DNA from: a virus
Lineage: Duplodnaviria > Heunggongvirae > Uroviricota > Caudoviricetes
DNA: 64,000 bases
Virus record (IMG/VR): IMGVR_UViG_3300036944_000513
Coordinates: 37,644 to 101,643 of that record
Reading direction: 5' to 3' (one strand)
Below the pieces are notes generated by a model, which was not told where the DNA came from, did no database searches, and worked only from the letters and a program-made list of their open reading frames with translations. Of the stretch, positions 25,240-59,760 are shown one piece after another. The position numbers and the translations under genes are program-made. The stretch's first letter is position 1, and each line of letters opens with the position of its first letter.

Positions 25240-25721
25240 TCAATCCGTTCCTCATATACAGTTGTTGGCGTATATGGGAATTCTACTGCAACTCGGCTCT
25301 CTCTGCAAGTAAAATGTGATTTACTTTTTACGCCTGTTTCTGGGTCGGTATACCAATCCCAAAAAACTTTACCGTCAATATCATATGCGCTGCCATCGGC
25401 ATCTTTAAAAACCCTACTGGCGCGTTTATTTTGATAGTGAGGTGTGCCATCGCCATACCCTGAAACATCTACCCATTCGTCATCTTCACCAGTAAGTGGG
25501 GTCAATGGATCAAATCTAAGGAGTTTTTCAAGCACATTAACAGCATAACTTGCAGAGAATCCAGAAAATCCAGAATTACTAAATACTAATATGATATTCA
25601 AAATAGATTCCCGCATCATGCGATTTATTTCATCGGGAGAATCTTCGGTCATTCCAATAATATCCAACTCTCGCTTACTAAATTCAATCATAAAACTATG
25701 CCCCATATAAAAATTAAACAT
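25236..25721 (-). CDS. hypothetical protein
   Basis: 161-aa ORF. Confidence 0.45.
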   Translation of the reverse strand: MFNFYMGHSFMIEFSKRELDIIGMTEDSPDEINRMMRESILNIILVFSNSGFSGFSASYAVNVLEKLLRFDPLTPLTGEDDEWVDVSGYGDGTPHYQNKRASRVFKDADGSAYDIDGKVFWDWYTDPETGVKSKSHFTCRESRVAVEFPYTPTTVYEERIE

Positions 25722-26642
25722 ACTTGCACGGATAGAACACCATATACCTATTTAATTGGCTGGTCAAACATGAATATATATTATTATGGTAGACGAACCG
25801 CAAAAAATTGTCATCCCAGTGATCTATTTGTGACTTATTATACATCATCAAAATATGTCTGTCAACATATAAAAGACCACGGAATCCCCGATATTATTAA
25901 AATTAGAAAAACATTTAATTCAATAAAAAAATGCATTCGTTGGGAAGAAAAAGTTTTAAAAAAATTAGATGCAAAAAATCATAAGCAATTTTTGAATCAC
26001 TCAAATGGGCCAAATGATTTTCATAGCACCAATAAAGTAGCAGTTAAAGATATGAATGGAAATATATTTTTTGTATATACAAATGATCCAAAATTTATAT
26101 CAAAAGAATACGTTGCACTATCAAAGGGAAGAAAATATTCTAAAGAAATTAATTCAAAAAAGGCGTGTGCAATTGGAAAGGTTGCGGTTAAAGATAAGGA
26201 TAATAATTATTTTCAAGTGTTAAAGACCGATCCCCGATATATTTCAGGAGAATTAATCCCAGTTGCAACTGGAAATAAAAGGACTAAAGATCAAAATAAA
26301 AATTGTGGAAAACATATGGTTGGATTTCTTCTTGCAAAAGATTTAAATGGGGATACACTAAAAGTAAAAAAAGATGATCCATTAATTATTTCCGGAGGTT
26401 TAATTCCAATTGGAACTAATATGCCAATGGCAAAAGATTTAAATGGAAAAATATTTAGAACTACGCGAGATGACCCAAGGTGGCTCACTGGAGAAATAAT
26501 AAACCCAAATACAGGAAAAAGTTTTAATAAGGGCATATCAAAACCAAAATTATTATGCCCACACTGCGATAAATTAATTGCAATTAATATGTTCAATAGG
26601 TATCACGGGGATGCATGCAAATTAAAATCAATATTTGAATAA
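25698..26642 (+). CDS. repeat protein, possible degenerate GIY-YIG-type homing endonuclease with five ~35-aa tandem repeats
   Basis: N-terminal YTYLIGWSNMNIYYYGRR (GIY...YIG-like spacing); five repeats of KD(L/M)NG......DP(R/K)(Y/F)ISGELIP..TG; opposite strand to its neighbours. Confidence 0.4.
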   Translation: MPHIKIKHTCTDRTPYTYLIGWSNMNIYYYGRRTAKNCHPSDLFVTYYTSSKYVCQHIKDHGIPDIIKIRKTFNSIKKCIRWEEKVLKKLDAKNHKQFLNHSNGPNDFHSTNKVAVKDMNGNIFFVYTNDPKFISKEYVALSKGRKYSKEINSKKACAIGKVAVKDKDNNYFQVLKTDPRYISGELIPVATGNKRTKDQNKNCGKHMVGFLLAKDLNGDTLKVKKDDPLIISGGLIPIGTNMPMAKDLNGKIFRTTRDDPRWLTGEIINPNTGKSFNKGISKPKLLCPHCDKLIAINMFNRYHGDACKLKSIFE

Positions 26643-31699: not shown

Positions 31700-31899
31700 T
31701 CTTTGACTCCGAAATGTTCTACCAATGCAATATATGCCGTAGGACTTGCACACTTTTTAGCAACAACATCCATACATTCACCCACAATCAACTCAGCAAA
31801 CTTTTCAATTGCTGCGCGATCATATGCGTCCATTGTATCCCAACAACCGGCTGCTGTCAACCCCGCGTGATACATTAAATCTTCAATTTTTTTGTTCAT
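31696..31899 (-). CDS. MNxRIKELAEQAG / FAELIVKEC / HFGVKE family small protein (paralog)
   Basis: MNKKIEDLMYHAG...KFAELIVGECMD...EHFGVKE. Confidence 0.55.
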   Translation of the reverse strand: MNKKIEDLMYHAGLTAAGCWDTMDAYDRAAIEKFAELIVGECMDVVAKKCASPTAYIALVEHFGVKE

Positions 31900-32039
31900 C
31901 TTTCACGCTCATCATAAATAAAATTGCCAGCAGATATGTCCACATACTCCAATTGTAATTAATTACAACATAAGTAGTTCCTGCAACTATTGCAAAATTA
32001 TATAGTAAAACTCCGATAATTTCAACACTTTTCATAATA

Positions 32040-32573: not shown

Positions 32574-33371
32574 TTACTTGTTCATCATCAAAGCATTGAA
32601 GTTTGATGGCACAACAATTGTTTGTACTTTACCAGTCTTAATACCTTCTGAGATATTCAACATAGCTTGGGCTTGCATGAATGCAATTGAAGAACCGGAG
32701 TTGTTAGCTAGTGCAGCCATACGACGAGATTCGGCTTCGGCAGTTTTAACTTCAACTTCCTTTTGTTTCAGTTCGTTCTTAGCCTTCACCAATTCGTTAG
32801 CACTTGCTACAACTGAATCTGCGGGCACTACATTACGAATCAAAACCTGACTGATAGTGATAGAACCATCCAGCTTTTCTTCGGTGAGGTTACGGACAAT
32901 TTCTTCCTTGATAAAGTTTTCCATATCGGAACGAGCATCTGCCATATCCAAGGCTTCGTATTTACGCGCTGCCTTGTAAATGGAGTTACGAGCATTTTGT
33001 ACAATGTAGTTATACATCACATAGGTATCACCTTTGGCTTCGGCATGGAAGCTCTTGTTCTTGGTGGAGTAAAGTTCAGCCACTTGTTGTGGGTTGATAT
33101 TATAAACAACCACCGCATCAAAGTCTTTCATGGTGGAGTTGTCTTTAGCAACCGGAGTCATGTTCTCCAAAACTACATTAACATCTTTGATAGGGAAAGT
33201 TAGCACATTACCAATCAATTCTTGATTAAAAGACCCCGGCAAGAGTTCACCACTTTGAACTTGCTTATCAAAACCAACACGAACACCAACTTGGCCGGTT
33301 TCAATACGAGTACATGCGGAAGTCAAAGCAACGGCAGCAACAACCAAAAACAATTTTACAAAACGATTCAT
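32574..33371 (-). CDS. SPFH/band-7 domain lipoprotein (HflK/C-prohibitin-like)
   Basis: Signal peptide with lipobox LTSAC, an SPFH-domain-like region, and a C-terminal coiled coil (KAKNELKQKEVEVKTAEAESRR). Confidence 0.55.
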   Translation of the reverse strand: MNRFVKLFLVVAAVALTSACTRIETGQVGVRVGFDKQVQSGELLPGSFNQELIGNVLTFPIKDVNVVLENMTPVAKDNSTMKDFDAVVVYNINPQQVAELYSTKNKSFHAEAKGDTYVMYNYIVQNARNSIYKAARKYEALDMADARSDMENFIKEEIVRNLTEEKLDGSITISQVLIRNVVPADSVVASANELVKAKNELKQKEVEVKTAEAESRRMAALANNSGSSIAFMQAQAMLNISEGIKTGKVQTIVVPSNFNALMMNK

Positions 33372-33383
33372 TTCAAATTTCCT

Positions 33384-33560
33384 TTAGAATAAATTAACAA
33401 TAACAAACAAAATTACAAACGCAATGGATGCGAACACAGTAGCTTTAAACAGTGCTATTAAAACAAAAGCACGTTCTTCCTTACCTGCTTGCGACCACAT
33501 ATTATATGTGAAAGCAATAACCACGATCAACACTGAAAAAATAAAAGCCATACCAATCAT
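33384..33560 (-). CDS. small two-TM membrane protein (NfeD/YqiJ-like partner of the SPFH protein?)
   Basis: 58 aa: MIGMAFIFSVLIVVIAFTYNMW...FVILFVIVNLF; GGAGAA SD; located immediately upstream of the SPFH gene. Confidence 0.4.
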   Translation of the reverse strand: MIGMAFIFSVLIVVIAFTYNMWSQAGKEERAFVLIALFKATVFASIAFVILFVIVNLF

Positions 33561-33561
33561 A

Positions 33562-34101
33562 TTACTTTTCTCCTTTTGCTAAAATTAGATTTTTACCAGT
33601 CTGCCAAATGCATTCTTCCAGAATTAAACCTTGTTTTACCGTTCCATCACATAAAATATGATATAAAGATTGAACAGTAATTTCAAATTCAACTCCCCGT
33701 GGATCTAAAATTTTAAACAATTTATTTCCACGATAACGATTCACTGTGTCAATCAATTTAAATCCACTGAGAGGAACATTATCCCATATTCGGGGAGCAT
33801 AGTCAAGCTCAATTGGTCTATCAAACTTAATTTCATTGCGTTGGCGAGTAACGGAGTCATATGCAAATGTTGATCCCCTTTCCCACCATTCGTTTCCATT
33901 TTTATATGCAGTTCCAGTATAAGCCCAATGCATTTGCGTTTCTTTACGCGCAGCATCGGTTTTTTTATTTGGTTCATGTGGATGAAGAAACCCAAAATTA
34001 TGGGATTCTTCATTATATGTATTCCAATCACCTTTAATTGGATAACTACGCTCAGAACGATTCTTTGAAACTACAAATATTTTATCTGGAATTTTAGTCA
34101 T
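33562..34101 (-). CDS. hypothetical protein
   Basis: 179 aa; ATGA overlap with the ligase gene. Confidence 0.5.
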   Translation of the reverse strand: MTKIPDKIFVVSKNRSERSYPIKGDWNTYNEESHNFGFLHPHEPNKKTDAARKETQMHWAYTGTAYKNGNEWWERGSTFAYDSVTRQRNEIKFDRPIELDYAPRIWDNVPLSGFKLIDTVNRYRGNKLFKILDPRGVEFEITVQSLYHILCDGTVKQGLILEECIWQTGKNLILAKGEK

Positions 34102-35144
34102 TGCGTTTCTCCAAGCAAATATTTGTTGCTGATGCTTTTAAAAGTCATTCCCCCCGCAACATGCTTAAACACAATACCTTCACGCTCCACACTAGGATTC
34201 AGTTTAGACTTATCCTCCGCCCATTGTAGAATTTCTTCCACTGAACCAACGCCAAGGTCTTTATCTACAAACAATACGGGGACATGAAGTAGTTCAAGAG
34301 AATCTACAAAATGACGCCTTACTGCTGGCTCAAAATATTTGCCGCTATTGATATGGTAGCAATCAAATACGCGAAACTCTGGCTTAGATAGCTTATAGAT
34401 ATTACCCTGAATTCCGGGGCCAATCAATTCACCTTGAATAGCAATATCATATGGCAAAGACATAATCTTTTCCTTAATATTGTTTTCAATTGCAGCTTTC
34501 CAGAATGCGTTATTCTCATCTTCCTTCAAGTCAAGATTGCGTGAGCATACACCAAATGTATCACCAATCTTATATACAGTCATCGAAGAGCCTTCCAGCT
34601 TTTCAGTGACTTCAAAGTGCATAGTCTTACATGCTGCAATTTCTTTGGTAAGATTTTGGGCACGTTCTTGATCGGTCTTAGGAATCAGTGATGGGAAGTT
34701 ACCCTTTGCCATGCCAGCCAACTGAGCATTCATAGGCTTTTCCCACTTTTGAATGCCAAGCAGTTCAGATACATCTTGCTCCATAGTAACTGTCCATTTG
34801 TGCGGGCTACCGTTGGCGTCAATGCCATGGATGAAGTTGCCAACTGATGTTTGATAAACCGGTAGCAACAGACCCTGAGACAATTGACCGCGCAACTTTA
34901 CAGTACGCAGACGTTCGCCTTTCACTCCATCGTATTCCCGTGGTTCTTTGCCTTTGCTAAGAAAAGGCGCCAACGCTGTAGGCACCCATGAATCGATCTC
35001 CAAATAAACTGCAAGCTCTCCAACATTATATTCGCCTTTTTTAACAACAACTTTCCAACCACCCACGGTTGCGCATTCAATAGCATCTGCACCCTCGATA
35101 GGATTCAGTGCATCAATCTTTCTAATAGTAGCTAATTTTCTCAT
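34098..35144 (-). CDS. RNA ligase, Rnl2/DraRnl-type (second RNA ligase)
   Basis: N-terminal MRKLATIRKIDALNPIEGADAIECATVGGWKVVVKKGE resembles the N-domain of DraRnl-type ligases; motif-I-like EVTEKLEGSSM (KxxG[ST]). Confidence 0.5.
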   Translation of the reverse strand: MRKLATIRKIDALNPIEGADAIECATVGGWKVVVKKGEYNVGELAVYLEIDSWVPTALAPFLSKGKEPREYDGVKGERLRTVKLRGQLSQGLLLPVYQTSVGNFIHGIDANGSPHKWTVTMEQDVSELLGIQKWEKPMNAQLAGMAKGNFPSLIPKTDQERAQNLTKEIAACKTMHFEVTEKLEGSSMTVYKIGDTFGVCSRNLDLKEDENNAFWKAAIENNIKEKIMSLPYDIAIQGELIGPGIQGNIYKLSKPEFRVFDCYHINSGKYFEPAVRRHFVDSLELLHVPVLFVDKDLGVGSVEEILQWAEDKSKLNPSVEREGIVFKHVAGGMTFKSISNKYLLGETQ

Positions 35145-58837: not shown

Positions 58838-58912
58838 TGGTCCGGGATGACGGAATCGAACCGCCATTTAGGGAGTAGAAATCCCCTGTATTATCCATTA
58901 TACGAATCCCAG
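58838..58912 (-). tRNA. tRNA-Arg (anticodon UCU)
   Basis: 75-nt cloverleaf: 7-bp acceptor stem, GTAT/ATAC D-stem, anticodon loop TT-TCT-AC, T-arm GGCGG-TTCGATT-CCGTC, encoded CCA. Confidence 0.85.
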
Positions 58913-59683: not shown

Positions 59684-59760
59684 TGGTGCGACTTGTTGGG
59701 CTCGAACCAACGACCAATCGATTATGAGTCGAATGCTCTGACCAACTGAGCTAAAGTCGC
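59684..59760 (-). tRNA. tRNA-Met (anticodon CAU; elongator-type, or a lysidine-modified tRNA-Ile2)
   Basis: 77-nt cloverleaf: acceptor GCGACTT/AAGTCGC, D-arm GCTC/GAGC, anticodon loop CT-CAT-AA, T-arm GTTGG-TTCGAGC-CCAAC, encoded CCA. Confidence 0.85.

What the first reader, a model, noticed from the sequence alone, without database searches (positions are those of the whole stretch)
32574..33560. SPFH/band-7 lipoprotein with an upstream NfeD-like mini membrane protein
A 265-aa lipoprotein with an SPFH (HflK/C, prohibitin-like) domain and a C-terminal coiled coil is preceded by a 58-aa two-TM protein. This mirrors the bacterial SPFH-NfeD operon architecture. Phage SPFH proteins could form membrane microdomains, or shield phage membrane proteins from FtsH-type proteolysis.
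Basis: partly seen in the sequence, partly recalled or inferred. Interest (0 to 1): 0.5.

Follow-up and report, generated by a model that had tools for sequence, protein, structure and literature searches.

The report
Phage SPFH lipoprotein with hairpin partner
A T4-like freshwater phage carries a strongly conserved two-gene membrane module: an exported, lipid-anchored SPFH (prohibitin/HflK-like) scaffold protein and, just upstream, a 58-residue two-helix membrane protein that is a dedicated partner but is not an NfeD protein.

Summary
Both ORFs are real, on the minus strand. The 265-aa gene (32574-33371) is a Band_7/SPFH protein (Pfam E 4.5e-15, above the curated cut-off). It has a conserved lipobox cysteine, Cys20. 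Its AlphaFold model (pLDDT 89.7) matches full-length cage-forming prohibitin, HflK/C, stomatin, erlin and QmcA.

The 58-aa gene (33384-33560) is a genuine, unnamed gene family. It comprises 344 clusters, nearly all exactly 58 aa, with a conserved motif, an SD site, and its frame kept across saturated synonymous divergence. It sits directly upstream of the SPFH gene in about 80 of 82 related viral loci, although the flanking genes belong to more than 30 different families on each side. The pairing persists in relatives with only 28-47% SPFH identity and in Roseateles/Mitsuaria chromosomes.

It is not NfeD. It is an all-helical hairpin with no OB-fold, and 0 of 29 members hit Pfam NfeD. The SPFH protein is exported, whereas NfeD-paired SPFH proteins face the cytoplasm.

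Phage SPFH genes have been catalogued since 2006, but no functional study was found. Verdict: a new variant of a known kind, of moderate interest. The physiological role (membrane proteostasis/FtsH, superinfection exclusion or lysis timing) is not resolved.

The parts
33384..33560 (-). Gene for a 58-aa two-helix membrane hairpin, the dedicated partner of the SPFH lipoprotein. The family is unnamed and has no Pfam domain.
   Evidence: ORF. AlphaFold predicts helices 2-24 and 27-57, pLDDT 90.6. The family has 344 clusters, nearly all 58 aa. I2, V55 and F58 are invariant, and R23, G27, E29, T34 and K35 are at least 90% conserved. A Band_7 gene always follows it in independent contigs. dN/dS is 0.22-0.40 against the closest relatives.
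33570..33575 (-). Shine-Dalgarno site AAGGAG, 9 nt upstream of the small gene's ATG. The stop codon of the preceding 179-aa ORF (33562-33564) lies 1 nt before that ATG.
   Evidence: Read from the sequence. SD-like motifs occur in 40 of 57 unique upstream contexts of the family, against a 6% background.
33380..33384 (-). Shine-Dalgarno-like AAGGA in the 12-nt spacer, 8 nt upstream of the SPFH ATG. No terminator lies between the two genes.
   Evidence: Sequence. The terminator scan finds nothing in 33372-33383.
32574..33371 (-). Gene for a 265-aa SPFH/Band_7 lipoprotein.
   Evidence: The AlphaFold model has pLDDT 89.7. Foldseek matches PHB1/2, HflK/C, stomatin, erlin and QmcA over the full length, E 1e-13 to 5e-9.
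33312..33371 (-). Type II (lipoprotein) signal peptide, residues 1-19, plus the lipobox cysteine Cys20 (codon 33312-33314). The first SPFH strand (TRIETGQVGV) follows directly with no linker.
   Evidence: Sequence. Homologues read L[TA][ST][AG]C-TR. The Cys is at least 90% conserved in alignment A1. The model shows the first strand starting at the Cys.
32730..33308 (-). SPFH (Band_7) domain, residues 22-214.
   Evidence: Pfam PF01145 envelope.
32634..32819 (-). Two long C-terminal helices (CC1/CC2, residues about 185-246). In solved SPFH cages these form the wall of the dome.
   Evidence: DSSP of the model. Aligned with the coiled-coil regions of the solved cages.
32598..32633 (-). Conserved C-terminal motif GKVQTIVVPSNF, residues 247-258. 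It is inferred to be the strand that closes the cap of an oligomeric cage.
   Evidence: The consensus GKVxxIVVPxxF is kept across the diverse alignment A1. pLDDT is low in the monomer model. The cap role is inferred by analogy with HflK/C and prohibitin structures.

Best explanation
This is a two-gene, co-transcribed and probably translationally coupled membrane module of a T4-like freshwater phage.

Gene 2 encodes an SPFH protein that is exported and lipid-anchored through Cys20. Its SPFH domain therefore sits flush on the periplasmic face of a membrane. Like HflK/C, prohibitin, stomatin and flotillin, it is expected to oligomerise through its coiled-coil helices and C-terminal strand into a ring or dome that fences off a membrane patch.

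Gene 1 encodes a 58-aa helical hairpin in the inner membrane. Its loop is basic and cytoplasmic, and both termini end at the periplasmic surface. It is the dedicated integral-membrane partner of that scaffold, either as an adaptor/anchor or as the enclosed client.

The hairpin is a functional analogue, not a homologue, of the membrane partners of other SPFH proteins (NfeD, or YdjG/H in Bacillus subtilis).

My commitment on physiological role has low confidence. The pair acts as a phage-supplied envelope-proteostasis or protection scaffold of the HflK/C-prohibitin type during infection, for example by restricting access of FtsH-type quality control to membrane proteins or by stabilising the inner membrane.

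Shown: fold, lipobox, hairpin, obligate linkage, purifying selection. Inferred: oligomerisation, which membrane is targeted, physical contact between the two proteins, expression timing, physiological role.
For: - Family and fold: Band_7 scores above the Pfam cut-off. The AlphaFold model is confident, and full-length Foldseek matches reach PHB1/2 (9o9z, 1.2e-13), HflK/C-FtsH (9cz2, 7vhq, 7wi3), stomatin, erlin and QmcA-YbbJ (8z5g).
- Lipoprotein: the lipobox Cys is conserved.
- Hairpin structure. The positive-inside count is 3.4 K/R in the loop against 0.8 at the N-terminus.
- Linkage in close relatives: a strict screen finds the hairpin gene upstream of SPFH in 74 of 82 viral loci, and most of the rest hold it in longer or truncated ORFs. 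The flanking genes fall into at least 33 upstream and at least 34 downstream families.
- Reverse test: starting from the hairpin protein, a Band_7 gene is always next.
- Linkage in distant relatives: the pairing is kept in BUCT-ZZ01 at 47% identity. It is kept in L173 at 44%, L175 at 35%, L177 at 35% and L180 at 28%. It is also kept in Roseateles/Mitsuaria chromosomes.
- Selection: synonymous sites are saturated in both genes (pS about 0.66). pN is 0.105 for SPFH and 0.41 for the hairpin.
- Expression signals: SD sites are present and there is no terminator between the genes.
- Precedents: flotillin cages are lipid-anchored and lack a TM helix (PMC12624060). YdjG/H are non-NfeD membrane partners (PMC8581546).
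Against: - No experiment or complex model shows that the two proteins touch. Co-variation of their distances is weak (Mantel r 0.23) and could reflect shared ancestry alone.
- Most bacterial homologues (Bdellovibrio, Rhodoferax, Polaromonas, Massilia) lack the hairpin. It is therefore not needed for the scaffold as such.
- Two deep relatives (L176, L179) lack the hairpin, and one close locus (L040) has none.
- Thr at +2 after the lipidated Cys would send the protein to the outer membrane under the E. coli Lol rule (my own knowledge). That would separate it from an inner-membrane hairpin.
- No evidence ties the module to FtsH.
- The genomic context hints at other roles. A 'superinfection exclusion' gene lies next to the Kuttervirus homologue. 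An endolysin-like gene and a holin-like gene lie just upstream in L173.
Confidence: 0.5

Rival explanations
1. A genuine SPFH-NfeD operon: the small protein is a minimal NfeD that regulates or anchors the SPFH protein as YbbJ does for QmcA.
For: The gene order matches: a small membrane protein is encoded immediately upstream of, and tightly coupled to, an SPFH gene. QmcA of the QmcA-YbbJ complex is among the structural matches.
Against: The C-terminal OB-fold beta-barrel that defines NfeD (PMC2636767) is absent. The protein is 58 aa and all-helical. None of 29 members hits Pfam NfeD at E<=1, and there is no NCBIfam hit. NfeD pairs only with the SPFH1/2/5 subfamilies (PMC2636767). These face the cytoplasm (my own knowledge), whereas this protein is an exported lipoprotein.
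Confidence: 0.05
2. A superinfection-exclusion or envelope-immunity device. The periplasmic lipoprotein scaffold and the inner-membrane hairpin block DNA entry or envelope damage by later-arriving phages, in the manner of T4 Imm/Sp or the T5 Llp lipoprotein.
For: The module is carried by a lytic T4-like phage among replication-region genes on the same strand. Both products are envelope proteins. In Vi01-like phages the SPFH gene sits next to a gene annotated 'superinfection exclusion' (PMC3220722). The SPFH protein is under very strong purifying selection while the hairpin evolves fast, which is a pattern compatible with conflict.
Against: There is no sequence similarity to Imm, Sp, Llp or Cor families: the hairpin gave no PHROG hit and nothing in PADLOC. 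Free-living bacteria carry close homologues in ordinary chromosomal contexts. The neighbouring annotation in Kuttervirus is itself unverified.
Confidence: 0.2
3. A lysis-related module: the hairpin is a holin, antiholin or pinholin-like protein and the lipoprotein modulates lysis timing or acts in a spanin-like way.
For: A small two-TM protein next to a lipoprotein with coiled coils superficially resembles holin/spanin cassettes. In L173 the pair directly follows a Hydrolase_2 (endolysin-like) gene and an 85-aa two-TM protein with a charged tail. In Salmonella phage 38 an Rz-like spanin lies about 2.4 kb away.
Against: By my own knowledge of these families, the products do not fit. The hairpin lacks the hydrophilic charged C-terminal tail typical of holins; it ends ...VNLF at the membrane surface. 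The lipoprotein is a 265-aa SPFH fold, not a short proline-rich o-spanin, and has no C-terminal TM as a u-spanin would. The hairpin has no periplasmic domain, so it cannot be an i-spanin. In the window and in most loci no lysis gene is adjacent.
Confidence: 0.1
4. The SPFH lipoprotein is sorted to the outer membrane and works there on its own. The hairpin is merely a co-transcribed neighbour with an unrelated function.
For: The residues after the lipidated Cys are Thr-Arg, with no Asp at +2. Under the E. coli Lol rule (my own knowledge) this means outer-membrane sorting. A prophage-encoded SPFH protein of Pasteurella is found in outer-membrane vesicles and signals through TLR1/2 (PMC9872710). 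Most bacterial homologues lack the hairpin.
Against: The linkage of the two genes survives saturated synonymous divergence and complete turnover of the flanking genes. It is also kept in lineages with only 28-47% SPFH identity. This is hard to explain without functional coupling. Lol sorting rules differ between bacterial groups (my own knowledge).
Confidence: 0.12
5. The 58-aa ORF is a chance ORF or is not translated, and only the SPFH gene is functional.
For: The ORF is short and hydrophobic, has no database domain, and is only 17-33% identical to most relatives.
Against: The length is fixed at 58 aa in 344 clusters, with invariant or nearly invariant positions. The SD motif is enriched. pN is below pS, with dN/dS 0.22-0.40 against the nearest relatives. 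The reading frame is retained although synonymous sites are saturated.
Confidence: 0.03

Closest known systems
HflK/HflC (bacterial SPFH3) and mitochondrial prohibitin PHB1/PHB2 cages
   Same: These are the best full-length structural matches. They share the same order of parts: membrane anchor, SPFH domain, long coiled-coil helices and a C-terminal strand. They share the same topology, with the bulk of the protein on the periplasmic or intermembrane-space side. No NfeD partner is known for them (PMC2636767).
   Different: There is no detectable sequence similarity to any PDB chain. The anchor is a lipidated cysteine rather than an N-terminal TM helix. There is one gene rather than a paralogous heterodimer pair. 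A dedicated 58-aa hairpin partner is present. Any relation to FtsH is unknown.
SPFH-NfeD operons (QmcA-YbbJ, YqiK-YqiJ, FloT-YuaF, PH1511-PH1510)
   Same: A small membrane protein is encoded immediately upstream of an SPFH gene in one operon. The partner evolves together with the SPFH gene.
   Different: The partner has no OB-fold domain and no protease domain. The SPFH protein faces the opposite side of the membrane. There is no sequence relationship.
Bacillus subtilis YdjG/YdjH-YdjI (SamG/H-SamI) and lipid-anchored flotillins
   Same: The SPFH protein has no TM helix of its own. It depends on, or is accompanied by, small integral membrane proteins encoded upstream (PMC8581546), or is held by lipid modification alone (PMC12624060).
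   Different: Those systems are cytoplasmic. YdjG/H are unrelated in sequence and size, and they link to PspA. Here the scaffold is periplasmic and the partner is a minimal hairpin.
Previously catalogued phage SPFH/Band 7 proteins (phrog_200 'lipoprotein'; T4-like 44RR, Aeh1, RB43; Vi01-like/Kuttervirus; Acinetobacter phages; giant viruses)
   Same: They share the same superfamily and, for phrog_200, the same lipoprotein architecture (PMC1524935; PMC3220722).
   Different: Identity to the cultured examples is only 23-27%, except BUCT-ZZ01 at 47%. The hairpin partner has not been described. It is absent from the Kuttervirus and Herod loci inspected.

Membership tests
SPFH / Band_7 superfamily (PF01145) | Sequence match to the Band_7 profile above the curated threshold | tested here: met
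   56.6 bits against a cut-off of 23.6, E 4.5e-15, residues 22-214. All 120 close homologues carry a precomputed PF01145 hit.
SPFH / Band_7 superfamily (PF01145) | SPFH alpha/beta domain followed by long coiled-coil helices and a C-terminal segment, as in solved cage-forming members | tested here: met
   The AlphaFold model has pLDDT 89.7. Foldseek gives full-length hits to PHB1/2, HflK/C, stomatin, erlin, QmcA and flotillin, probability 1.00.
SPFH / Band_7 superfamily (PF01145) | Assembly into a large membrane-attached ring or cage | not testable with these tools
   Only monomer prediction is available. Conservation of the C-terminal GKVxxIVVPxxF motif is suggestive only.
Bacterial lipoprotein (signal peptidase II substrate) | Positively charged n-region, hydrophobic h-region and a lipobox ending in an invariant Cys | tested here: met
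   The signal is MNRFVK-LFLVVAAVA-LTSA-C20. It fits the permissive PROSITE-type pattern as I recall it. Position -3 is Thr rather than the usual Leu. Homologues vary at -1 to -3 within the allowed residues while the Cys is kept. Bacterial and Kuttervirus homologues have canonical L-[SAVG]-[GA]-C. Lipidation itself was not tested.
NfeD (PF01957) | C-terminal membrane-anchored OB-fold beta-barrel domain | tested here: not met
   The protein is 58 aa, predicted as two helices with no strands. There is no Pfam NfeD hit for the window protein or for any of 29 family members at E<=1. There is no NCBIfam hit.
NfeD (PF01957) | Encoded in an operon directly upstream of an SPFH gene | tested here: met
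   There is a 12-nt spacer, an SD site and no terminator. The linkage is conserved.
NfeD (PF01957) | Partner SPFH belongs to the NfeD-paired subfamilies SPFH1/2/5 | tested here: not met
   The partner is an exported lipoprotein. The subfamily rule is from PMC2636767. That SPFH1/2/5 face the cytoplasm is my own knowledge.
HflK/HflC | N-terminal TM anchor, paralogous K/C gene pair, binding of FtsH | tested here: not met
   The anchor is a lipobox instead of a TM helix, and there is a single SPFH gene. No phmmer similarity to any PDB chain, including HflK/C, was found. FtsH binding cannot be tested here.
Holin | Small membrane protein with one or more TM segments and a hydrophilic, charged C-terminal tail, encoded in a lysis cassette | tested here: not met
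   The protein ends at F58 with no tail. One of 29 members gave a weak Holin_SPP1 hit, E 0.058. No endolysin gene is adjacent in the window.
Spanin (Rz/Rz1 or u-spanin) | An i-spanin with a periplasmic coiled-coil domain plus a short o-spanin lipoprotein, or a lipoprotein with a C-terminal TM | tested here: not met
   The hairpin has no periplasmic domain. The lipoprotein is a 265-aa SPFH fold without a C-terminal TM.

The most novel reading that the evidence does not exclude
Phages, and a few Burkholderiales, use a previously unrecognised two-component periplasmic SPFH machine: a lipid-anchored cage plus an obligate 58-aa hairpin subunit, sometimes with a third 28-aa micro-protein. During infection it takes over inner-membrane quality control (for example by sequestering FtsH or its substrates) or seals the envelope against superinfection. 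This would be the first functional role for a virus-encoded SPFH cage, and a new class of SPFH partner distinct from NfeD.
Probability: 0.22. Interest if true: 0.7.

Novelty: new variant of a known kind. Interest (0 to 1): 0.45.

Why it matters
SPFH proteins (prohibitins, stomatins, flotillins, HflK/C) are now known to build membrane cages, yet what most bacterial members do is unclear, and no function has been assigned to any viral one. This module is abundant in freshwater T4-like phages: 471 related viral loci were found, and thousands of metagenomic proteins match. The SPFH protein is under very strong purifying selection. The module has a minimal, genetically tractable partner that has escaped annotation.

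The partner family gives a specific handle for asking three questions: what an exported SPFH scaffold encloses, whether phages manipulate host membrane proteostasis, and how SPFH cages are coupled to integral membrane proteins without NfeD. A cultured system exists (Synechococcus phage BUCT-ZZ01 on S. elongatus PCC 7942), as do chromosomal copies in culturable Roseateles.

Tried and rejected
- Megablast of the region and of 25 kb around it against phage genomes found essentially nothing. The phage is uncultured. Its DNA polymerase is about 49% identical to those of cyanomyoviruses.
- BLASTP between the window hairpin and the BUCT-ZZ01 hairpin gave no alignment. tblastn with the hairpin found only 2 of 82 loci. 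The family became visible only through position, length and a profile.
- phmmer of the SPFH protein against PDB sequences found nothing meaningful. The relation to solved structures is visible only through the fold.
- PADLOC gave no defence-system hit. NCBIfam gave no hit for either protein. PHROGs gave none for the hairpin.
- The search for related loci with the wide SPFH alignment and with the hairpin alignment failed because no conserved stretch was available.
It was redone with database members.
- A complex prediction (SPFH plus hairpin) could not be run or evaluated with these tools.
- Programmed readthrough fusion was considered because the two ORFs are in the same frame in the window. 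It was rejected because the spacers in other loci are 7-12 nt or about 95 nt, not a conserved multiple of three.
- Recent horizontal sweep of the SPFH gene was considered as the reason for its high identity. It was rejected because its synonymous sites are as saturated as those of the hairpin gene.
- Literature searches found no functional study of a phage SPFH protein or of SPFH lipoproteins.
Full report
**1. The observation**

The window holds two adjacent minus-strand ORFs exactly where the finding places them: 33384..33560 (58 aa) and 32574..33371 (265 aa).

- They are separated by 12 nt that contain an AAGGA Shine-Dalgarno-like site.
- The small ORF has AAGGAG 9 nt upstream of its ATG. 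It starts 1 nt after the stop codon of the preceding 179-aa ORF (sequence).
- No terminator-like site lies between the genes.
- All neighbouring genes run on the same strand. These include an RNA ligase at 34098..35144 and T4-type replication genes further on: gp43 polymerase, gp41 helicase, UvsX and gp44 clamp loader.
- The polymerase is about 49% identical to those of T4-like cyanomyoviruses. There is no nucleotide-level match to any sequenced phage.
- The window therefore comes from an uncultured T4-like myovirus. The related contigs come from metagenomes. Their freshwater origin is my reading of the IMG sample numbers and was not checked with a tool.

**2. The large protein**

- It is a Band_7/SPFH protein: Pfam E 4.5e-15, 56.6 bits against a cut-off of 23.6. 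It belongs to phrog_200, annotated 'lipoprotein'.
- The N-terminus is a lipoprotein signal, MNRFVKLFLVVAAVALTSA followed by Cys20. The first SPFH strand follows the Cys directly.
- In the 120 nearest database homologues the residues before the Cys vary within lipobox-permitted residues, while Cys-Thr-Arg is kept. In a 47-sequence alignment reaching down to 23% identity, the Cys is at least 90% conserved.
- An AlphaFold model built on that alignment is confident (pLDDT 89.7). It shows the SPFH alpha/beta domain, two long helices and a less ordered C-terminal segment carrying the conserved motif GKVxxIVVPxxF.
- Foldseek against the PDB gives full-length matches to the cage-forming SPFH proteins:
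  - human PHB1/2 (1.2e-13)
  - HflK/C with FtsH
  - stomatin
  - erlin
  - QmcA of the QmcA-YbbJ complex
  - flotillin
- Sequence search against the PDB finds nothing. An exhaustive HMMER search of 1.84 billion cluster representatives finds only 313 relatives. This is a compact, divergent SPFH subfamily.

**3. The small protein**

It is not a chance ORF.

- A strict screen finds a 50-62-aa hydrophobic ORF directly upstream of the SPFH gene in 74 of the 82 viral loci examined.
- Of the other eight, six hold it inside a longer ORF call, at a contig edge or as a shorter variant. One (L061) has only the C-terminal half and one (L040) has none.
- The length is 58 aa almost without exception. The pattern is MI[KR]...FGI..R...GKE.W.LTK...YS...IV.LF.
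- A profile search of 5.8 billion proteins finds 344 clusters. Nearly all are 58 aa, independent pipelines call them as genes, and none has a Pfam domain.
- Starting from two such proteins, the next gene in every contig read was a Band_7 gene.
- SD-like motifs precede the start in 40 of 57 unique upstream contexts, against a 6% background.
- dN/dS against the nearest relatives is 0.22-0.40.
- AlphaFold predicts a helical hairpin, helices 2-24 and 27-57, pLDDT 90.6.
- The loop is basic (3.4 K/R on average against 0.8 at the N-terminus). By the positive-inside rule, the loop is cytoplasmic and both termini end at the periplasmic surface. This topology is inferred.

**4. Linkage**

- The pair stays together while everything around it changes. 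In 72 loci the gene upstream of the pair belongs to at least 33 unrelated families, and the gene downstream to at least 34. None of the window's own neighbours recurs beside it.
- Synonymous sites are saturated in both genes (pS 0.67 and 0.66). The SPFH protein is held at pN 0.105, while the hairpin drifts to pN 0.41.
- The high SPFH identity (83-95%) therefore reflects strong purifying selection rather than a recent sweep. The hairpin is constrained mainly in length, hydrophobicity and about ten positions.
- The pairing extends deep into the subfamily:

| Locus | SPFH identity to the window | Partner |
|---|---|---|
| Synechococcus phage BUCT-ZZ01 | 47% | 58-aa hairpin |
| L173 | 44% | 62 aa |
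| L175 | 35% | 58 aa |
| L177 | 35% | 64 aa |
| L180 (no lipobox Cys) | 28% | 57 aa |

- The hairpin is absent in two TM-anchored relatives (L176, L179). It is also absent from the Kuttervirus and Acinetobacter phage Herod loci.

**5. Bacteria**

- Chromosomal homologues with 50-67% identity occur in Bdellovibrio/Bacteriovorax, Comamonadaceae, Massilia and Roseateles/Mitsuaria.
- Their contexts are ordinary and not syntenic.
- Most lack the hairpin. Roseateles/Mitsuaria have a 60-aa hairpin of the same design directly upstream, for example in L152 after what looks by eye like a ComM/YifB-like gene.
- The module is therefore not phage-specific, and the scaffold can exist without the hairpin.

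**6. Is it NfeD?**

No.

- NfeD proteins are defined by a membrane-anchored C-terminal OB-fold beta-barrel, sometimes with a ClpP-type protease domain. They accompany only SPFH1, SPFH2 and SPFH5. No NfeD was found for HflK/C, the p-prohibitins or the small subfamilies (PMC2636767).
- That SPFH1/2/5 face the cytoplasm is my own knowledge.
- The 58-aa protein is all-helical and has no room for such a domain.
- No member hits Pfam NfeD, even at E<=1.
- The SPFH protein here is exported.
- What is shared is the operon logic only.
- Closer functional precedents are the non-NfeD membrane proteins YdjG/YdjH, which anchor the TM-less SPFH protein YdjI in B. subtilis (PMC8581546). Another is flotillin, which forms cages held by lipid modification alone (PMC12624060).

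**7. Mechanism**

- Shown: fold, lipobox, hairpin, operon signals, obligate linkage and selection.
- Inferred: the lipoprotein is anchored by its acylated Cys20 with the SPFH domain flush on the periplasmic face of a membrane. It oligomerises into a ring or dome as its structural relatives do. The hairpin, whose termini end at that same surface, is its integral-membrane partner, either as an adaptor or as the enclosed client.
- The closest structural and topological analogues, HflK/C and prohibitin, both cage FtsH-type proteases. I therefore rank a membrane-proteostasis or membrane-stabilising role first, with low confidence.
- Superinfection exclusion is the main rival. It is supported only by gene neighbourhood in Vi01-like phages (PMC3220722) and by analogy with T4 Imm/Sp.
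- A lysis-timing role is hinted at by the endolysin-like and holin-like genes just upstream in L173. The proteins do not meet holin or spanin criteria.
- Which membrane the lipoprotein reaches is open. Thr at +2 would mean outer membrane by the E. coli Lol rule (my own knowledge). A prophage SPFH protein of Pasteurella is found in outer-membrane vesicles (PMC9872710).

**8. Novelty**

- SPFH/Band 7 ORFs in T4-like phages were listed in 2006 (PMC1524935) and in Vi01-like phages in 2011 (PMC3220722). They are also common in predicted viral structures, including giant viruses. The SPFH gene as such is therefore known.
- I found no functional study of any phage SPFH protein.
- New here are three things:
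  - the unannotated hairpin family and its near-obligate pairing with an exported, lipid-anchored SPFH subfamily
  - the demonstration that this is not an NfeD system
  - the scale and selective constraint of the module in freshwater T4-like phages
- I rate it a new variant of a known kind, of moderate interest.

Noticed in passing
L005 2914-3000; L031, L048 2005-2091 and about 25 further related viral loci (not in the window): A third conserved micro-ORF of 28 aa with one TM segment (MINDRWLRPLYFALGFVVCFYLFSTGVI) lies between the hairpin gene and the SPFH gene and ends exactly at the SPFH ATG. Gene callers leave this stretch as a 96-nt gap. The window has the 'tight' form without it.
   Followed up: partly
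L002 2310-2447 (Salmonella phage 38, Kuttervirus): An unannotated 45-aa ORF with one TM segment and a TTG start ends at the start of the Kuttervirus SPFH lipoprotein gene. It may be a different small membrane partner in that lineage.
   Followed up: no
L173 1085-2804: In a relative with 44% SPFH identity, four genes stand in a row: a Hydrolase_2 (endolysin-like) gene, an 85-aa two-TM protein with a charged tail (holin-like), the 62-aa hairpin and the SPFH gene. This suggests a lysis-cassette context in that phage.
   Followed up: partly
L084-L094 (Bdellovibrio and Bacteriovorax genomes): The closest cellular homologues of the phage SPFH lipoprotein (59-67% identity) are in predatory Bdellovibrionota. 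They are closer than the Burkholderiales copies (50-59%). They are single genes without the hairpin.
   Followed up: partly
L105, L107, L109, L112, L121, L127 (Rhodoferax): The SPFH lipoprotein gene directly follows a gene whose C-terminus looks like GspF/PilC (type II secretion or type IV pilus platform protein).
   Followed up: no
window 31883-32035 (-): Another small membrane ORF (50 aa, two hydrophobic segments, charged C-terminal tail KDEQKN) lies two genes downstream of the SPFH gene.
   Followed up: no
window 33371-33560 (-): The hairpin ORF and the SPFH ORF are in the same reading frame, separated by TAA plus 12 nt. Spacer lengths in other loci argue against a readthrough fusion.
   Followed up: yes
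window 25698-26642 (+); 58838-58912 and 59684-59760 (-): An HNH-endonuclease-like ORF lies on the opposite strand to the surrounding genes. Two tRNA genes (Arg-TCT, Met-CAT) are also present.
   Followed up: no
L148 (contig binned as a Saccharibacteria MAG): This locus carries a 58-aa hairpin plus an SPFH pair typical of the phage form, among small phage-like genes. It is probably a phage or prophage contig that was mis-binned.
   Followed up: no
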